A stretch of 38,841 bases of DNA from the sequence record NC_011045.1. One strand, 5' to 3'. Under the pieces are notes generated by a model. It did no database searches and was not told the DNA's origin. It saw only the letters and a list, made by a program, of their open reading frames with translations. The stretch is from Escherichia phage 13a. Of the stretch, positions 12,616 to 20,315 are shown in pieces; the first letter of the stretch is position 1; each line of letters starts with the position of its first letter. Both the position numbers and the translations under genes were made by a program.

Positions 12616-14574
12616 ATGATCGTTTCTGACATCGAAGCTAACGCCCTCTTAGAGAGCGTCACTAAGTTCCACTGCGGGGTTATCTACGACTACTCCACCG
12701 CTGAGTACGTAAGCTACCGTCCGGGTGACTTCGGTGCGTATCTGGATGCGCTGGAAGCCGAGGTTGCACGAGGCGGTCTTATTGTGTTCCACAACGGTCA
12801 CAAGTATGACGTTCCTGCATTGACAAAACTGGCAAAGCTGCAATTGAACCGAGAGTTCCACCTTCCTCGTGAGAACTGTATCGACACCCTTGTGCTGTCA
12901 CGTTTGATTCATTCCAACCTGAAAGACACCGATATGGGTCTTCTGCGTTCCGGTAAGTTGCCGGGGAAACGCTTTGGGTCTCACGCTTTGGAGGCGTGGG
13001 GTTATCGCTTGGGCGAAATGAAAGGTGAATACAAGGATGACTTTAAGCGTATGCTTGAAGAGCAGGGTGAAGAATATGTTGATGGTATGGAGTGGTGGAA
13101 CTTCAACGAAGAGATGATGGACTATAACGTTCAGGACGTTGTGGTCACTAAAGCTCTCCTTGAGAAGCTACTCTCTGACAAACATTACTTCCCTCCTGAG
13201 ATTGACTTTACGGACGTAGGGTACACTACGTTCTGGTCAGAATCCCTTGAGGCCGTTGACGTTGAACATCGTGCTGCATGGCTGCTCGCTAAGCAAGAGC
13301 GCAATGGGTTCCCGTTTGACACGAAAGCAATCGAAGAGTTGTACGTAGAGTTAGCTGCTCGCCGCTCTGAGTTGCTCCGTAAATTGACCGAAACGTTTGG
13401 CTCATGGTATCAGCCTAAAGGTGGCACCGAAATGTTCTGCCATCCGCGAACAGGTAAGCCACTGCCTAAGTACCCTCGCATTAAGACACCTAAAGTGGGT
13501 GGTATCTTTAAGAAGCCTAAGAACAAGGCACAGCGAGAAGGCCGTGAGCCTTGCGAACTGGACACCCGCGAGTACGTTGCTGGCGCTCCGTATACTCCAG
13601 TGGAGCACGTGGTGTTTAACCCTTCGTCTCGTGACCACATCCAGAAGAAACTCCAAGAGGCTGGATGGGTCCCCACGAAGTACACCGATAAGGGTGCTCC
13701 TGTGGTGGACGATGAGGTACTCGAAGGAGTACGTGTAGATGACCCTGAGAAGCAAGCTGCTATCGACCTCATTAAAGAGTACTTGATGATTCAGAAGCGA
13801 ATCGGACAGTCTGCTGAGGGAGACAAGGCATGGCTTCGTTACGTTGCTGAGGACGGTAAAATTCATGGTTCTGTTAACCCTAATGGAGCAGTTACGGGTC
13901 GTGCGACCCATGCGTTCCCAAACCTTGCGCAAATTCCGGGTGTACGTTCTCCTTATGGAGAGCAGTGTCGCGCTGCTTTTGGCGCTGAGCATCATTTGGA
14001 TGGGATAACTGGTAAGCCTTGGGTTCAGGCAGGTATCGACGCAAGCGGCCTTGAGTTGCGCTGCCTGGCTCACTTCATGGCTCGATTTGATAACGGTGAG
14101 TACGCTCACGAGATTCTTAATGGTGACATCCACACTAAGAACCAGATGGCTGCTGAACTGCCTACCCGCGATAACGCTAAGACGTTCATCTACGGGTTCC
14201 TTTATGGTGCCGGTGATGAGAAGATTGGGCAGATTGTCGGTGCTGGTAAAGAGCGTGGTAAGGAACTCAAGAAGAAATTCCTTGAGAACACCCCTGCGAT
14301 TGCAGCACTCCGTGAGTCTATACAACAGACACTTGTCGAATCCTCTCAGTGGGTAGCTGGTGAGCAACAAGTCAAGTGGAAACGCCGCTGGATTAAAGGT
14401 CTGGATGGTCGTAAGGTCCATGTTCGCAGTCCTCACGCTGCTTTGAATACCCTTCTGCAATCTGCTGGTGCTCTCATCTGCAAACTGTGGATTATCAAGA
14501 CCGAAGAGATGCTCGTAGAGAAAGGCTTGAAGCATGGCTGGGATGGGGACTTTGCGTACATGGCATGGGTGCAT
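12616..14574 (+). CDS. 5: DNA polymerase gene 5, exon 1 (653 codons)
   Basis: [49 protein letters not shown]... near-identical to T7 gp5 through ...DFAYMAWVH; unspliced frame stops 8 codons later at 14596-14598. Confidence 0.95.
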
Positions 14575-15175
14575 AAACTATCTCATTGTGCACATTAAAT
14601 CTGGTGAACTCGGTGAAACCCTTCTGGGGCAATACCGAGCCAAGCCATAGGGAGGATATATGAGAGGCAAGAAGTTAATCCTTGCGACCACAGAGAGTGG
14701 TTGTATCATCCCTACGTCACACAAACTTAATGCTGATGGTTATTTCCGAAAGAAGACGAACGGTGTCCTAGAGATGTATCACAGGACAGTCTGGAAGGAA
14801 CACTACGGAGATATACCAGAAGGGTATGAAGTAGACCACAAGTGTAGGAACAGGGCGTGCTGTAACGTAGAGCACCTCCAGTTACTAGAAGGTTCTGAGC
14901 ATACAGTCAAGACAAACAGGGAACGCTACGCTGACCGTAAAGAGTCCGCGAAGGAATACTGGTTGGAGACTGGATGTACAGGAACACACTTAGGTGAGAA
15001 GTTTGGTGTAACGTTCTCTGCAGCTTGTAAGTGGATTAGAGAGTGGAAGGCGTAGAGACTATCCGAAAGGAGTAGGGCCGAGGGTGAGATTCCCTCGTTA
15101 CCCGAAGCGCCAGACAGTCAACTCAAAGGCTGATGATATAGTCCGACACTCCTAGTAATAGGAGAATACAGAAAG
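14575..15175 (+). mobile_element. Group I self-splicing intron in DNA polymerase gene (601 nt)
   Basis: Exon 1 ends in U, intron ends in G; internal guide GUGCAC (14588-14593) pairs with exon GUGCAU (14569-14574); R/S-like core gacta (15057-15061) / gatatagtcc (15135-15144); P9-like hairpin 15149-15164; joined exons restore full 704-aa DNAP. Confidence 0.85.
14660..15055 (+). CDS. Intron-encoded HNH homing endonuclease (131 aa)
   Basis: SD agggagg before ATG; HNH motif YEVDHKCRNRACCNVEHLQLLEGSEHTVKTN; paralogous to the 7.7 and post-19 HNH ORFs. Confidence 0.85.
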   Translation: MRGKKLILATTESGCIIPTSHKLNADGYFRKKTNGVLEMYHRTVWKEHYGDIPEGYEVDHKCRNRACCNVEHLQLLEGSEHTVKTNRERYADRKESAKEYWLETGCTGTHLGEKFGVTFSAACKWIREWKA

Positions 15176-15331
15176 GATGAGATTCAAGTAGGTTGCCGTA
15201 CCGAAGAGATTGCTCAGGTTGTAATTGAGACCGCACAAGAGGCAATGCGCTGGGTTGGAGACCACTGGAACTTCCGGTGTCTGCTGGATACCGAAGGTAA
15301 GATGGGTCCGAATTGGGCCGTATGTCACTGA
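15176..15331 (+). CDS. 5: DNA polymerase gene 5, exon 2 (51 codons + stop)
   Basis: DEIQVGCRTEEIAQVVIETAQEAMRWVGDHWNFRCLLDTEGKMGPNWAVCH matches T7 gp5 C-terminus. Confidence 0.9.
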   Translation, partial: DEIQVGCRTEEIAQVVIETAQEAMRWVGDHWNFRCLLDTEGKMGPNWAVCH

Positions 15332-15350
15332 TTCTATAGGAGAAATTATT

Positions 15351-15650
15351 ATGGCTATGACCAAGAAATTTAAAGTGTCCTTCGACGTTACCGCAAAGAT
15401 GCCGTCTGACGTTCAGGCAATCTTAGAGAAAGACATGCTGCATCTATGTAAGCAGGTTGGCTCCGGTGAGATTGTCCCCAATGGTAAACAGAAGGAAATG
15501 ATTGTCCAGTTCCTGACACACGGTATGGAAGGCTTGATGGCATTCGTAGTACGTACATCATTCCGTGAGGCCATCAAGGACATGCACGAAGAGTATTCCG
15601 ATAAGGACTCCTTCAAACTATCTCCTGCAACTGTACGGGAGGTGTTCTGA
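15351..15650 (+). CDS. 5.5: gp5.5 H-NS-binding protein (99 aa)
   Basis: MAMTKKFKVSFDVTAKMPSDVQAILEKDMLHLCKQVGSGEIVPNGKQKEM... near-identical to T7 gp5.5. Confidence 0.93.
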   Translation: MAMTKKFKVSFDVTAKMPSDVQAILEKDMLHLCKQVGSGEIVPNGKQKEMIVQFLTHGMEGLMAFVVRTSFREAIKDMHEEYSDKDSFKLSPATVREVF

Positions 15651-18705: not shown

Positions 18706-20315
18706 TGGCTGAGAAACGAACAGGACTTGCGGAGGAGGGCGCAAAGTCTGTCTATGAGCGTTTAAAGAATGACCGTGCTCCATACGAGACACGCGCTCAG
18801 AATTGCGCTCAATATACAATCCCTTCATTGTTCCCTAAGGACTCCGATAACGCCTCAACGGACTATGTAACTCCGTGGCAAGCTGTGGGCGCTCGTGGTC
18901 TAAACAATCTAGCCTCTAAGCTCATGCTGGCTCTCTTCCCGATGCAGACTTGGATGCGACTTACTATATCCGAATATGAAGCAAAGCAGCTACTGAGCGA
19001 CCCCGATGGACTCGCTAAGGTCGATGAGGGTCTCTCGATGGTAGAGCGTATCATCATGAACTACATTGAGTCTAACAGCTACCGAGTGACTCTCTTTGAG
19101 GCTCTCAAACAGTTAGTCGTAGCTGGTAATGTCCTGCTGTACCTACCGGAACCGGAAGGGTCAAACTATAATCCCATGAAGCTGTACCGATTGTCTTCTT
19201 ATGTGGTCCAACGAGACGCATTCGGCAACGTTCTGCAAATGGTGACTCGTGACCAGATAGCTTTTGGTGCTCTCCCTGAGGACATCCGTAAGGCTGTAGA
19301 AGGTCAAGGCGGTGAGAAGAAAGCTGATGAGACCATCGACGTGTACACTCACATCTATCTGGATGAGGACTCTGGTGAGTATATCCGATACGAAGAGGTA
19401 GAGGGTATGGAAGTCCAAGGCTCCGATGGGACTTACCCTAAAGAGGCTTGCCCATACATCCCGATTCGTATGGTTCGACTGGACGGAGAATCCTACGGTC
19501 GTTCGTACATTGAGGAATACTTAGGCGACTTGCGGTCCCTTGAGAATCTCCAAGAGGCCATCGTTAAGATGTCCATGATTAGCTCTAAGGTTATCGGCTT
19601 AGTGAATCCTGCTGGTATCACCCAGCCACGCCGACTGACCAAAGCTCAGACTGGTGACTTCGTTACTGGTCGTCCAGAAGACATCTCGTTCCTCCAACTG
19701 GAGAAGCAAGCCGACTTTACCGTAGCCAAGGCTGTCAGTGACGCTATTGAGGCTCGACTTTCGTTTGCCTTTATGTTGAACTCTGCGGTTCAGCGTACAG
19801 GGGAACGTGTGACCGCCGAAGAGATTCGGTATGTCGCTTCTGAACTTGAAGATACTTTAGGTGGTGTCTACTCTATCCTTTCTCAAGAATTACAATTGCC
19901 TCTGGTACGAGTGCTCTTGAAGCAACTACAAGCCACGCAACAGATTCCTGAGTTACCTAAGGAAGCCGTAGAGCCAACTATTAGCACAGGTCTGGAAGCA
20001 ATCGGTCGTGGTCAAGACCTTGATAAGCTGGAGCGTTGTGTCGCTGCGTGGGCTGCACTGGCTCCTATGCGTGATGACCCTGACATCAACCTTGCGATGA
20101 TTAAGCTGCGAATTGCTAACGCTATCGGTATTGACACTTCTGGTATTCTACTCACCGAAGAACAGAAGCAACAGAAGATGGCCCAACAGTCTATGCAAAT
20201 GGGTATGGATAATGGTGCCGCTGCGCTGGCTCAAGGTATGGCTGCACAGGCTACAGCTTCACCTGAGGCTATGGCTGCTGCCGCTGATTCCGTAGGTTTA
20301 CAGCCGGGCATTTAA
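18705..20315 (+). CDS. 8: Head-tail connector (portal) protein gp8 (536 aa)
   Basis: MAEKRTGLAEEGAKSVYERLKNDRAPYETRAQNCAQYTIPSLFPKD... near-identical to T7 gp8; track ORF begins upstream at 18690. Confidence 0.97.
   Translation: MAEKRTGLAEEGAKSVYERLKNDRAPYETRAQNCAQYTIPSLFPKDSDNASTDYVTPWQAVGARGLNNLASKLMLALFPMQTWMRLTISEYEAKQLLSDPDGLAKVDEGLSMVERIIMNYIESNSYRVTLFEALKQLVVAGNVLLYLPEPEGSNYNPMKLYRLSSYVVQRDAFGNVLQMVTRDQIAFGALPEDIRKAVEGQGGEKKADETIDVYTHIYLDEDSGEYIRYEEVEGMEVQGSDGTYPKEACPYIPIRMVRLDGESYGRSYIEEYLGDLRSLENLQEAIVKMSMISSKVIGLVNPAGITQPRRLTKAQTGDFVTGRPEDISFLQLEKQADFTVAKAVSDAIEARLSFAFMLNSAVQRTGERVTAEEIRYVASELEDTLGGVYSILSQELQLPLVRVLLKQLQATQQIPELPKEAVEPTISTGLEAIGRGQDLDKLERCVAAWAALAPMRDDPDINLAMIKLRIANAIGIDTSGILLTEEQKQQKMAQQSMQMGMDNGAAALAQGMAAQATASPEAMAAAADSVGLQPGI

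What the first reader, a model, noticed from the sequence alone, without database searches (positions are those of the whole stretch)
14575..15175. Group I intron with an HNH homing endonuclease ORF splits DNA polymerase gene 5
Seen directly: the T7-DNAP-like frame (653 codons from 12616) runs into TAA at 14596-14598 right after ...DFAYMAWVH, and the missing C-terminal 51 residues (DEIQVGCRTEEIAQVV...GPNWAVCH) resume in frame at 15176, giving a 704-aa polymerase when joined. The intervening 601 nt has group I hallmarks: exon 1 ends in U (14574) and exon 5'-GUGCAU-3' (14569-14574) can pair with an intron guide 5'-GUGCAC-3' (14588-14593), placing a U.G pair at the 5' splice site; the intron ends in G (15175); R/S-like core elements (gacta 15057-15061 opposite tagtc within gatatagtcc 15135-15144) and a P9-like hairpin (ctcct 15149-15153 / aggag 15160-15164) are present. 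An SD-preceded 131-aa HNH ORF (14660-15055) sits in the intron and its stop codon abuts the putative P7 5' strand, so translation and ribozyme folding may compete. From memory, self-splicing introns with HNH ORFs in DNA polymerase genes of T7 relatives are described in the literature (Bonocora and Shub), so this is probably a known element class, but it is the most unusual structure in the window.
Basis: partly seen in the sequence, partly recalled or inferred. Interest (0 to 1): 0.8.

Follow-up and report, generated by a model that had tools for sequence, protein, structure and literature searches.

The report
Known self-splicing intron in polymerase gene
The DNA polymerase gene of this T7-like phage is interrupted by a 601-base self-splicing group I intron that carries its own homing endonuclease gene; it is real and intact, but the same element was described in T7 relatives in 2004 and sits in dozens of sequenced phages.

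Summary
Against intron-less T7 and YpsP-G, the window has an exact 601-nt insert (14575-15175) between the His653 and Asp654 codons of gene 5. Joining the exons gives a 704-aa protein, 700/704 identical to T7 gp5. The insert folds as a subgroup IA2 group I intron (P1, P10, P3-P9, P7.1/P7.2). On 12 same-site relatives, 95.6% of cells pair (about 40% in slid controls) and 22 of 65 pairs show compensatory changes, including the exon-guide helices P1 and P10. Rfam matches the full group I model at only 37.9 bits (threshold 50); every ORF-bearing relative also falls short, while endonuclease-free relatives pass. The 131-aa HNH ORF lies in the P6a loop, not merely next to P7, and its last 13 nt form the 3' strands of P6a and P6. 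Its protein is exactly the deposited phage 13a 'HNH endonuclease', is 87% identical to I-TslI of phage PhiI, and is 48% identical to free-standing T3 gp5.3. A Kayfunavirus carrying a window-type intron in K1F-type exons shows mobility. Interest is low.

The parts
12616..14574 (+). Gene 5 (DNA polymerase) exon 1, 653 codons, ending ...AWVH (His653)
   Evidence: ORF list; Pfam DNA_pol_A 5.6e-39; co-linear with T7 and YpsP-G up to 14574
14575..15175 (+). Group I (subgroup IA2) intron, 601 nt
   Evidence: Exact insert relative to intron-less alleles; RF00028 37.9 bits, full-length model, E=2.7e-6 window-wide; covariation; MFE z=-2.97
14569..14593 (+). P1: exon GUGCAU (14569-74) plus A14575 paired with U14587 plus internal guide GUGCAC (14588-93); U14574.G14588 marks the 5' splice site
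   Evidence: cmscan alignment; 100% paired in 12 sequences; G-C to A-U compensatory change between exon and guide in ECBP2 and L022; also Vp_R1
14580..14586 (+). P10 guide AUCUCAU, pairs with exon 2 AUGAGAU (15177-83)
   Evidence: helix 2. C14582-G15181 changes to U-A in L024 and in the I-TslI-encoding contigs, where exon 2 reads GAA
14596..14598 (+). In-frame UAA that ends read-through of the exon 1 frame, in J1/3, one base before P3
   Evidence: the unspliced product would end ...[10 protein letters not shown]
14600..14606 (+). P3 5' strand (pairs with 15108-15114)
   Evidence: helix 3: 4 of 7 pairs with compensatory changes; recovered by MFE
14610..14638 (+). P4 (14610-15 / 14633-38) enclosing P5 (14619-22 / 14626-29)
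   Evidence: P4 invariant; P5 has 2 compensatory pairs; recovered by MFE
14639..14648 (+). P6 5' strand GCC (14639-41), AAG internal loop, P6a 5' strand CCAU (14645-48)
   Evidence: Pairs with 15049-51 and 15043-46; P6a has 3 of 4 compensatory pairs and P6 has 1 of 3; recovered by MFE
14650..14655 (+). Shine-Dalgarno GGGAGG for the intron ORF, in the P6a loop
   Evidence: Sequence; conserved in relatives. A hairpin hiding it is not supported
14660..15055 (+). HNH homing endonuclease gene, 131 aa (I-TslI orthologue), in the P6a loop; its 3' end (15043-51) forms the P6a and P6 3' strands
   Evidence: Pfam HNH_3 6.6e-17; PHROG 6254 7.8e-47; exact match to phage 13a YP_002003959.1 and 87% identical to I-TslI; 48% identical to T3 gp5.3; best fold match I-HmuI
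15057..15061 (+). P7 5' strand GACUA (pairs with UAGUC 15139-43)
   Evidence: Invariant in 12 of 12 sequences; lies within the conserved R and S core motifs in the cmscan alignment
15062..15103 (+). P7.1 (UCC-GAAA-GGA, 15062-71), GUA linker (15072-74), P7.2 (15075-15103): the IA2 signature
   Evidence: P7.2 A-U to U-A compensatory change in 5 sequences; recovered by MFE; IA2 criterion quoted in PMC3428280
15108..15114 (+). P3 3' strand
   Evidence: helix 3
15115..15132 (+). P8 hairpin
   Evidence: 3 of 5 pairs compensatory, 78% paired (the alignment is weakest here); recovered by MFE
15135..15143 (+). S element GAUAUAGUC, containing the P7 3' strand (15139-43)
15149..15164 (+). P9 hairpin CUCCU-AGUAAU-AGGAG
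   Evidence: 4 of 5 pairs compensatory, 100% paired
15175..15175 (+). Terminal G of the intron (omega G), 3' splice site
   Evidence: Insert boundary against intron-less alleles
15176..15331 (+). Gene 5 exon 2: 51 codons starting at catalytic Asp654-Glu655, plus stop

Best explanation
Bases 14575-15175 are a mobile, self-splicing group I intron of subgroup IA2. It is inserted in DNA polymerase gene 5 between the codons for His653 and Asp654, in the conserved H-D-E stretch (Pol I site 881 per PMC3428280; that this is the catalytic 'motif C' is my own knowledge). After transcription the RNA folds into P1-P10. The internal guide GUGCAC pairs with the last six exon bases and sets a U.G wobble at the 5' splice site. 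A free guanosine attacks there. The adjacent guide AUCUCAU then holds exon 2 (P10), and the exons are ligated after the terminal G15175. The result is mRNA for a 704-aa polymerase. The loop of helix P6a carries a 131-aa HNH endonuclease gene, an orthologue of I-TslI. In a mixed infection this enzyme cuts or nicks intron-less polymerase alleles at the insertion site. Repair from the intron-bearing genome then copies the intron, plus a few tens of flanking exon bases, into the recipient (homing). Shown here: the exact insert, the restored reading frame, the fold with covariation, the HNH family assignment with close homology to I-TslI, and a lateral-transfer footprint. Inferred from homology and the literature: actual splicing, the cleavage activity and its position. 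Inferred from anatomy only: ribosomes translating the endonuclease gene must unwind the P6a and P6 3' strands and stop 1 nt before P7, so one RNA molecule cannot be translated there and folded for splicing at the same time.
For: The insert is exact against T7 and YpsP-G. The joined exons give 704 aa, 700/704 identical to T7 gp5, with no gaps. RF00028 matches over its full length as the only Rfam hit in the window, E=2.7e-6. On 12 same-site introns, 95.6% of cells pair against 36-47% when slid; 22 of 65 pairs have both-side changes against 2-6 when slid; 0 of 500 shuffles reach this on four of the five measures (10 of 500 for pair types). Covariation covers P1, P10, P3, P5, P6, P6a, P7.2, P8 and P9. 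MFE folding of the ORF-deleted core independently recovers every non-pseudoknotted helix, z=-2.97. P7.1 and P7.2 joined by GUA is the IA2 signature. The ORF matches HNH_3 at 6.6e-17, is 87% identical to I-TslI and 48% identical to T3 gp5.3, and its best fold match is I-HmuI. Contigs encoding the exact I-TslI protein carry the same 601-nt element with a 200/205 identical core; ORF codon differences are 45 synonymous and 17 nonsynonymous. For mobility, Kayfunavirus PDP351P3 has K1F-like exons (about 95%) but a window-like intron (94-99%), with flanks about 60% identical to the window. The literature reports in vivo and in vitro self-splicing for the PhiI and W31 introns and lists I-TslI among intron-encoded nicking enzymes (PMC3428280; PMC8845596).
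Against: The Rfam score (37.9) is below the curated gathering score (50), so a default scan reports nothing. This is explained: the ORF-bearing K1F, PT2 and DT115P1 copies score 31.8-39.0, while ORF-free relatives score 58.9-65.0. No RNA or enzyme data exist for this particular genome. The fold match to I-HmuI is weak (E=0.01, TM 0.37) and the PDB holds no sequence relative. I could not read the primary papers, so cleavage details rest on secondary citations and my memory.
Confidence: 0.95

Rival explanations
1. A homing-endonuclease gene inserted without splicing, so that the polymerase is made as two separate polypeptides that assemble afterwards (a 'gene in pieces', as reported for a split ribonucleotide reductase; reference 8 in PMC10448857).
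For: Several GenBank records annotate two separate polymerase CDSs around an HNH gene (for example AV103; PT2; DT115P1).
Against: Upstream of exon 2 the frame opens after TGA 15134-36 and holds no ATG, GTG or TTG. The first in-frame start inside exon 2 is an ATG 23 codons in, downstream of Asp654-Glu655, and no Shine-Dalgarno precedes exon 2 (read). The flanking non-coding RNA shows helix-by-helix covariation, including pairing to both exons, which an insertion without splicing would not maintain. The split annotations are automatic gene calls, and K1F is annotated as a join.
Confidence: 0.02
2. A decayed, splicing-defective intron remnant, or a sequencing or assembly artefact, that leaves gene 5 as a pseudogene.
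For: The Rfam score is below threshold. One relative, Citrobacter phage NS1, does look damaged: its S element is mutated and its exon 2 is displaced.
Against: In the window all core helices are intact and the P7, P4 and P7.1 sequences are identical to those of all relatives. The same element occurs in about 41 independently sequenced T7-like genomes. The core is 97.6% identical to the one in contigs encoding the exact I-TslI protein. The endonuclease ORF is under purifying selection (45 synonymous to 17 nonsynonymous codon differences). From general knowledge, T7 gene 5 is essential, so a viable lytic phage cannot carry it as a pseudogene.
Confidence: 0.02
3. The intron splices, but the endonuclease is no longer a homing enzyme: it is inactive, or it has been taken over for another role such as a maturase or exclusion of competing phages.
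For: No activity data exist for this protein. It differs from I-TslI at 17 of 131 residues.
Against: All invariant HNH-family residues are kept. Selection is purifying. There is a recent cross-genus transfer footprint with short co-converted exon tracts. Every one of about 41 T7-like copies keeps the ORF; none lacks it.
Confidence: 0.08

Closest known systems
[quoted passage not shown]
   Same: Same host gene and the same insertion site (Pol I site 881, H|DE). Same subgroup (IA2, no P2, P7.1/P7.2 joined by GUA). HNH ORF in P6a (PMC3428280). The endonuclease is 87% identical over 131 aa with no gaps. Contigs encoding the exact I-TslI protein carry a 601-nt element with a 200/205 identical core.
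   Different: The ORF differs at 19% of nucleotides (17 amino-acid changes). There is one guide/exon 2 compensatory difference in P10 (CUC/GAG here, UUU/GAA there) and a different P5 loop. I could not retrieve the deposited PhiI and W31 intron sequences (AY769989, AY769990), so the DNA comparison is with contigs that encode the identical protein.
Coliphage K1F gene 5 intron (GenBank DQ111067, polymerase annotated as a join with an internal 'homing endonuclease')
   Same: Same site, same architecture, 598 nt. The core is 92% identical. All helices are conserved, with compensatory changes.
   Different: The K1F-type endonuclease is about 76% identical. P1 loop and P10 differ: the K1F exon 2 is GAUGAGUUA and the P10 pairing is shorter. 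The host genus is different (Kayfunavirus).
Phage T3 gene 5.3 (free-standing HNH endonuclease next to an uninterrupted gene 5)
   Same: Homologous nuclease domain: 48% identity over residues 6-94, E=1e-31. It lies beside the same polymerase gene. The literature describes it as targeting the intron insertion site ('collaborative homing'; PMC10448857).
   Different: It is not inside an intron. It is 101 aa and lacks the C-terminal 35-40 residues (predicted helices 108-115 and 119-130) whose coding sequence supplies the P6a and P6 3' strands in the intron. T3's own target sequence differs (ATACAC|GACGAA).
Other phage DNA polymerase introns with HNH nicking endonucleases: SPO1 I-HmuI, SP82 I-HmuII, Bastille I-BasI, Pf-WMP3 I-PfoP3I
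   Same: Group I intron plus HNH endonuclease in a family A polymerase gene. Pf-WMP3 is also IA2 with the ORF in P6a. I-HmuI is the best structural match to the window protein.
   Different: Different insertion sites (Pol I positions 674 and 676 against 881). The proteins are only distantly related (20% identity in the fold alignment).
Phage T4 td intron with I-TevI (from my own knowledge, not tested here)
   Same: A phage IA2 intron in an essential DNA-metabolism gene, with an endonuclease ORF looped out of the P6 region. An in-frame stop sits soon after the 5' splice site. Interplay between translation and splicing has been studied (Semrad & Schroeder 1998, cited in PMC3073962).
   Different: The endonuclease is GIY-YIG, not HNH. 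The host gene and phage family are different.

Membership tests
Group I intron (Rfam RF00028) | Covariance-model match at or above the curated gathering score | tested here: not met
   37.9 bits against a gathering score of 50. The match spans the full model 1-253 with E=2.7e-6. The shortfall tracks the 396-nt ORF insertion: ORF-bearing K1F, PT2 and DT115P1 score 35.7, 39.0 and 31.8, while ORF-free relatives L017 and Arash score 65.0 and 58.9. This is a limit of the threshold, not evidence against membership.
Group I intron | P1 helix between the end of exon 1 and an internal guide sequence, with a U.G wobble at the 5' splice site | tested here: met
   U14574.G14588. 7 bp, 100% paired in 12 sequences, and the exon-guide pair G-C changes to A-U in two relatives.
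Group I intron | Terminal guanosine at the 3' splice site, and P10 pairing of the guide with exon 2 | tested here: met
   G15175 is the last inserted base relative to intron-less alleles. P10 is 14580-86 with 15177-83, with C-G to U-A covariation.
Group I intron | Conserved catalytic core: P3-P8 domain, P4-P6 domain, P3/P7 pseudoknot, R and S sequence elements | tested here: met
   All helices present. 22 of 65 pairs are compensatory; 95.6% of cells pair against about 40% in slid controls. MFE recovers the nested helices. GACUA and GAUAUAGUC are invariant.
Group I intron | Guanosine-dependent self-splicing | not testable with these tools
   Reported for PhiI and W31 (cited in PMC3428280). Inferred here from the 97.6% identical core in contigs encoding the exact I-TslI protein.
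Subgroup IA2 | Extra helices P7.1 and P7.2 between P7 and P3', joined by G-U-A (criterion as quoted in PMC3428280) | tested here: met
   P7.1 15062-71, GUA 15072-74, P7.2 15075-15103. P7.2 covaries (A-U to U-A in 5 sequences). Both helices are recovered by MFE.
HNH homing endonuclease, I-TslI lineage | HNH (beta-beta-alpha-metal) nuclease motif above the curated Pfam threshold | tested here: met
   PF13392 HNH_3, 61.3 bits against a cut-off of 24.8. PHROG 6254 at 7.8e-47. His, Asn and Cys residues are invariant across 43 homologues.
HNH homing endonuclease, I-TslI lineage | Close full-length homology to the characterised enzyme I-TslI | tested here: met
   87% identity, 95% similarity, 131 of 131 aligned with no gaps, and the same 90% cluster.
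HNH homing endonuclease, I-TslI lineage | I-HmuI-like overall architecture (N-terminal sheet, HNH core, long helix, C-terminal helical DNA-binding module) | tested here: inconclusive
   AF2 model pLDDT 88. I-HmuI 1u3e is the top PDB hit over the full length, but weakly (E=0.01, probability 0.92, TM 0.37). No PDB sequence hit.
HNH homing endonuclease, I-TslI lineage | Site-specific cleavage of the intron-less allele, and ORF-dependent homing | not testable with these tools
   Indirect evidence only: a cross-genus transfer footprint, purifying selection, and all T7-like copies retaining the ORF.

The most novel reading that the evidence does not exclude
The intron may travel as a co-adapted package with its exon context. 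Every intron-bearing allele has G at exon position -4 (GTGCAT), where intron-less T7 and YpsP-G have A. Exon position +6 (GAG or GAA) always matches the guide base (C or U). A homing event into a T7-type allele would therefore need a co-conversion tract covering at least -4 to +6 to produce a fully paired P1 and P10, so splicing efficiency could set a minimum tract length and limit which polymerase alleles can be colonised. Separately, the ribozyme is 97.6% identical and the ORF only 80.8% identical between the 13a-type and PhiI-type elements. That is compatible with endonuclease modules being exchanged inside an almost fixed ribozyme scaffold, rather than the two parts co-diverging.
Probability: 0.3. 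Interest if true: 0.35.

Novelty: already known. Interest (0 to 1): 0.15.

Why it matters
For biology this adds little. It is one more copy, in what is almost certainly coliphage 13a, of the PhiI/W31/K1F polymerase intron, and the endonuclease protein is already deposited under that phage's name. It has two practical uses. First, it shows an annotation gap. A default Rfam scan misses this intron and every ORF-bearing relative (31.8-39.0 bits against a threshold of 50), and many GenBank records split the polymerase into two CDSs or call the endonuclease 'hypothetical'. As a result, gene 5 looks truncated in dozens of T7-like genomes. Second, the relatives collected here document that one intron-plus-endonuclease lineage occupies the same H|DE site in family A polymerases of Studiervirinae, other Autographiviridae, Gordonclarkvirinae and Grimontviridae, with exon-guide covariation. 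That makes a tidy natural data set for studying how homing and splicing constrain each other.

Tried and rejected
1. A hairpin hiding the ORF's Shine-Dalgarno and start codon (GAGGAU 14652-57 with AUCCUU 14678-83). The MFE fold does not form it, and the region folds no better than shuffles (z=-0.26). It is not conserved in distant relatives (read). Rejected.

2. Homology between the intron ORF and T7 gene 5.3. There is none (E=9). The homologue is T3 gp5.3.

3. An internal T7-type promoter. AAUACCGAG...AUAGGGAGG at 14631-56 superficially resembles TAATACGACTCACTATAGGGAGA, but by eye the spacing is wrong and the -8 to -12 specificity bases do not match. I did not pursue it.

4. A second intron in the window. 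None at E<=0.1.

5. A PDB sequence relative of the endonuclease. None.

6. Reading the primary papers PMC529087 and PMC2856452. Neither is held, and a search for 'phage 13a' plus 'intron' found nothing.

7. Fetching the phage 13a record by an accession I remembered (NC_011045). It is not in the collection. The window's identity therefore rests on the exact protein match and on my memory that 13a is 38,841 bp.

8. Citrobacter phage NS1 was left out of the covariation set, because its copy looks rearranged or damaged.

9. My first extraction script failed on an anchor pattern and was corrected, and one script failed on file names.
Full report
WHAT THE WINDOW IS. The 38,841-base window is a complete T7-like genome (Teseptimavirus). 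It aligns with T7 from base 1 at about 93-94% identity. The protein encoded at 14660-15052 is residue-for-residue the deposited 'HNH endonuclease [Escherichia phage 13a]' (ACF15938.1 / YP_002003959.1). From memory, 13a is 38,841 bp, so the window is almost certainly that phage. The record itself is not in the searchable collection.

CHECKING THE OBSERVATION. The gene 5 frame opens at 12616 and, read straight through, stops at TAA 14596-98 after ...[14 protein letters not shown]. Alignment with the intron-less alleles of T7 and Yersinia phage YpsP-G shows perfect co-linearity up to ...GGGT(G/A)CAT at 14574, and again from GATGA(G/A)AT at 15176. The extra DNA is exactly 14575-15175, 601 nt, and no shared bases blur either boundary. 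Joining 12616-14574 to 15176-15331 gives 2,115 nt and 704 codons with no internal stop. The product aligns with T7 gp5 without gaps at 700/704 identity, and the junction reads ...AWVH|DEIQVG... in both. The insertion falls between His653 and Asp654, which the literature calls site 881 in E. coli Pol I numbering (PMC3428280). The ORF 14660-15055 (131 aa) follows GGGAGG at 14650-55 and matches Pfam HNH_3 at 6.6e-17, well above the curated cut-off.

IS IT A GROUP I INTRON? A default Rfam scan of the window reports nothing. With E-value reporting, RF00028 (Intron_gpI) matches 14565-15165 over the full model (1-253) at 37.9 bits. It is the only hit in the window, at E=2.7e-6. The score is below the gathering score of 50. 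I tested why. Relatives of the same core that lack an endonuclease gene pass (IMG/VR contig L017, 65.0 bits; Salmonella phage Arash, 58.9). Every ORF-bearing copy fails (PT2 39.0; DT115P1 31.8; K1F 35.7, whose polymerase is deposited as a two-piece join). The shortfall is therefore the cost of a 396-nt insertion in the model, not a defective ribozyme.

THE FOLD. From Infernal's alignment and from inspection I drew these helices:
- P1: 14569-75 with 14587-93, with U14574.G14588 at the splice site.
- P10: guide 14580-86 with exon 2 15177-83.
- P3: 14600-06 with 15108-14.
- P4: 14610-15 with 14633-38.
- P5: 14619-22 with 14626-29.
- P6: 14639-41 with 15049-51.
- P6a: 14645-48 with 15043-46.
- P7: 15057-61 with 15139-43.
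- P7.1: 15062-64 with 15069-71, closed by a GAAA loop.
- A GUA linker at 15072-74.
- P7.2: 15075-84 with 15092-15103.
- P8: 15115-19 with 15128-32.
- P9: 15149-53 with 15160-64.
There is no P2. P7.1 and P7.2 joined by GUA is the criterion for subgroup IA2 quoted in PMC3428280.

Two independent tests support the drawing. First, minimum-free-energy folding of the core, with the ORF replaced by a tetraloop, recovers P1, P3, P4, P5, P6, P6a, P7.1, P7.2, P8 and P9 exactly (z=-2.97; 1 of 200 shuffles folds as well). P7 is a pseudoknot and cannot be predicted this way.

Second, I assembled ORF-deleted cores of 12 introns at the same polymerase site. They came from Teseptimavirus, Kayfunavirus, Aeromonas phage PT2, Klebsiella phage RCIP0053, Edwardsiella phage DT115P1, ECBP2 and three metagenomic contigs. 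On this alignment 95.6% of cells form standard pairs, against 36-47% when partners are slid by 1-3 columns. 22 of 65 pairs show changes on both sides, against 2-6 when slid. No shuffle out of 500 reaches the observed value on four of the five measures (10 of 500 for pair types). P4, P7 and P7.1 never vary, so they say nothing either way.

The most telling covariation is between intron and exons. The outermost P1 pair is exon G with guide C here, and exon A with guide U in ECBP2, L022 and Vibrio phage Vp_R1. In P10, guide C14582 pairs with exon 2 G15181 (GAG) here. It is U with A (GAA) in contig L024 and in the contigs that encode the exact I-TslI protein. RNA that is not spliced would have no reason to keep pairing with both exons.

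WHERE THE ORF SITS. More precisely, it occupies the loop of P6a, as reported for PhiI and W31. The Shine-Dalgarno and start codon are in the loop. The last 13 coding nucleotides (15043-51, encoding ...EWKA) are the 3' strands of P6a and P6. The stop codon (15053-55) is 1 nt from P7. P6a covaries strongly: CCAU/GUGG here becomes ACUG/CAGU in RCIP0053 and DT115P1.

A ribosome finishing this ORF must therefore melt P6a and P6 and would cover P7 and P7.1. Likewise, the exon 1 frame reads through P1 and stops at UAA 14596-98, 1 nt before P3. A specific version, a hairpin hiding the Shine-Dalgarno, is not supported (z=-0.26).

THE ENDONUCLEASE.
- It falls in an HNH PHROG family at 7.8e-47.
- It has 182 database clusters of mostly full-length relatives.
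- It is 87% identical, with no gaps, to I-TslI of phage PhiI; both are in one 90% cluster.
- Free-standing T3 gp5.3, which lies directly after an uninterrupted gene 5, is 48% identical over residues 6-94 but lacks the C-terminal 35-40 residues.
- T7 gp5.3 is unrelated, and the window has no gene 5.3 at all: gene 5 stops at 15331 and gene 5.5 starts at 15352.
- An AlphaFold model (pLDDT 88) shows an N-terminal sheet, the HNH core, a long helix (78-104) and two C-terminal helices.
- The best PDB match is the full-length homing nickase I-HmuI, followed by I-PpoI, but weakly (E=0.01, TM 0.37). No PDB sequence relative exists.
- I-TslI is listed in the literature among intron-encoded nicking enzymes (PMC8845596). 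T3-type free-standing genes are described as cutting the intron insertion site ('collaborative homing'; PMC10448857).

EVIDENCE OF MOBILITY. The core occurs in 57 phage records. About 41 are T7-like, and all of those carry the ~600-nt ORF-bearing form.

Kayfunavirus PDP351P3 is about 95% identical to K1F through the polymerase exons. Across its intron it is 94-99% identical to the window, while its flanks are only about 60% identical to the window. Identity switches within roughly 30 nt upstream and 16 nt downstream of the splice sites. This is the footprint expected of homing with short co-conversion tracts.

Between the window and contigs encoding the exact I-TslI protein, the ribozyme is 200/205 identical. 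The ORF is 320/396 identical, with 45 synonymous and 17 nonsynonymous codon differences, so the protein is under purifying selection.

Target sites differ in an informative way. Every intron-bearing allele reads GTGCAT|GATGA. Intron-less T7 and YpsP-G read GTACAT|GATGAAATC. T3 reads ATACAC|GACGAA.

RIVALS. A split gene expressed as two polypeptides is contradicted by the lack of any start codon or ribosome-binding site for exon 2 before Asp654-Glu655 and by the covariation with both exons. A dead intron or an artefact is contradicted by the intact invariant core, by its recurrence in dozens of genomes, and by the essential role of gene 5. An endonuclease that has lost its homing function cannot be excluded without biochemistry, but it is unlikely.

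COMPARISON WITH WHAT IS KNOWN, AND VERDICT. This is the element described by Bonocora and Shub: the 2004 paper covers self-splicing IA2 introns in the PhiI and W31 polymerase genes, and the 2009 paper covers I-TslI homing and the homologous free-standing T3 gene 5.3. The same element is annotated as a join in K1F. The window's copy meets every sequence-level defining feature except Rfam's curated score, for the reason explained above. Splicing and cleavage themselves could not be tested here.

It is already known, and I score interest at 0.15. The residual value is practical. Default Rfam scans and most GenBank annotations miss it, which leaves gene 5 looking truncated. The collected relatives also show one intron-endonuclease lineage at the same H|DE site in at least four phage groups, including ECBP2 (Gordonclarkvirinae) and Vp_R1 (Grimontviridae).

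Noticed in passing
L006 (Aeromonas phage vB_AhaP_PT2, OM716005) about 1-190: About 1 kb upstream of the H|DE-site intron there is a second group I-like 3' core (CGACTATCCCGAAAGGGAGTA ... AAGATATAGTCTG). This suggests a second intron in or near the same polymerase gene. The locus is cut at that end and Rfam reported nothing there.
   Followed up: no
L009 (Salmonella phage Arash, OQ632216) 1327-1598: A related IA2 core without an endonuclease gene (RF00028, 58.9 bits) lies between CDSs annotated 'DNA polymerase nu' and 'DNA polymerase theta'. It is probably an unannotated intron at a different polymerase site. Its P6a is a perfect 12-bp hairpin whose loop keeps a Shine-Dalgarno and ATG remnant.
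   Followed up: partly
L005 (Citrobacter phage NS1, MN715150) 560-1260: This copy looks damaged or misassembled. Exon 1 has an 8-nt insertion (AAGAGACG), the S element is mutated (GATATACTCC), P7.1 is altered, and the sequence after the 3' splice site is not GATGAG. The record also starts about 900 nt upstream.
   Followed up: no
window 15332-15351: The window has no gene 5.3. Only 20 nt separate the gene 5 stop codon from the gene 5.5 start. T7 has an unrelated 118-aa gene 5.3 at this position, and T3 has the HNH gene that is homologous to the intron ORF.
   Followed up: partly
L029 (Vibrio phage Vp_R1, Grimontviridae), L010 (ECBP2, Gordonclarkvirinae), L007/L008 (RCIP0053, DT115P1): The same intron-plus-HNH lineage sits at the identical H|DE site of family A polymerase genes in phages far outside the T7 group. 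In these records it is annotated only as split polymerase fragments plus a 'hypothetical' or 'HNH' protein. RCIP0053 and DT115P1 also have a P2 hairpin that the window lacks.
   Followed up: partly
L012, L016, L017, L018, L020, L021, L023 (IMG/VR contigs): Group I introns without an endonuclease gene share the GGUGAACUCGGUGAA...AAUACCGAGC P3-P4 core but lie in other, unidentified genes. L017 scores 65 bits on RF00028.
   Followed up: no
GenBank records AV103, HZP2, WX2, PT2, DT115P1: The interrupted polymerase is annotated inconsistently: two 'DNA polymerase' CDSs, 'hypothetical protein' for the endonuclease, or spurious small ORFs called inside the ribozyme 3' half. Among the records I inspected, only K1F (DQ111067) uses a join.
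   Followed up: partly
T7 19879-20217 (gene 7.7) and homologues: The intron endonuclease has a distant resemblance (about 33% identity over residues 23-127) to T7 and phiA1122 gp7.7, another HNH gene of T7-like phages. I did not check whether the window has a gene 7.7.
   Followed up: no
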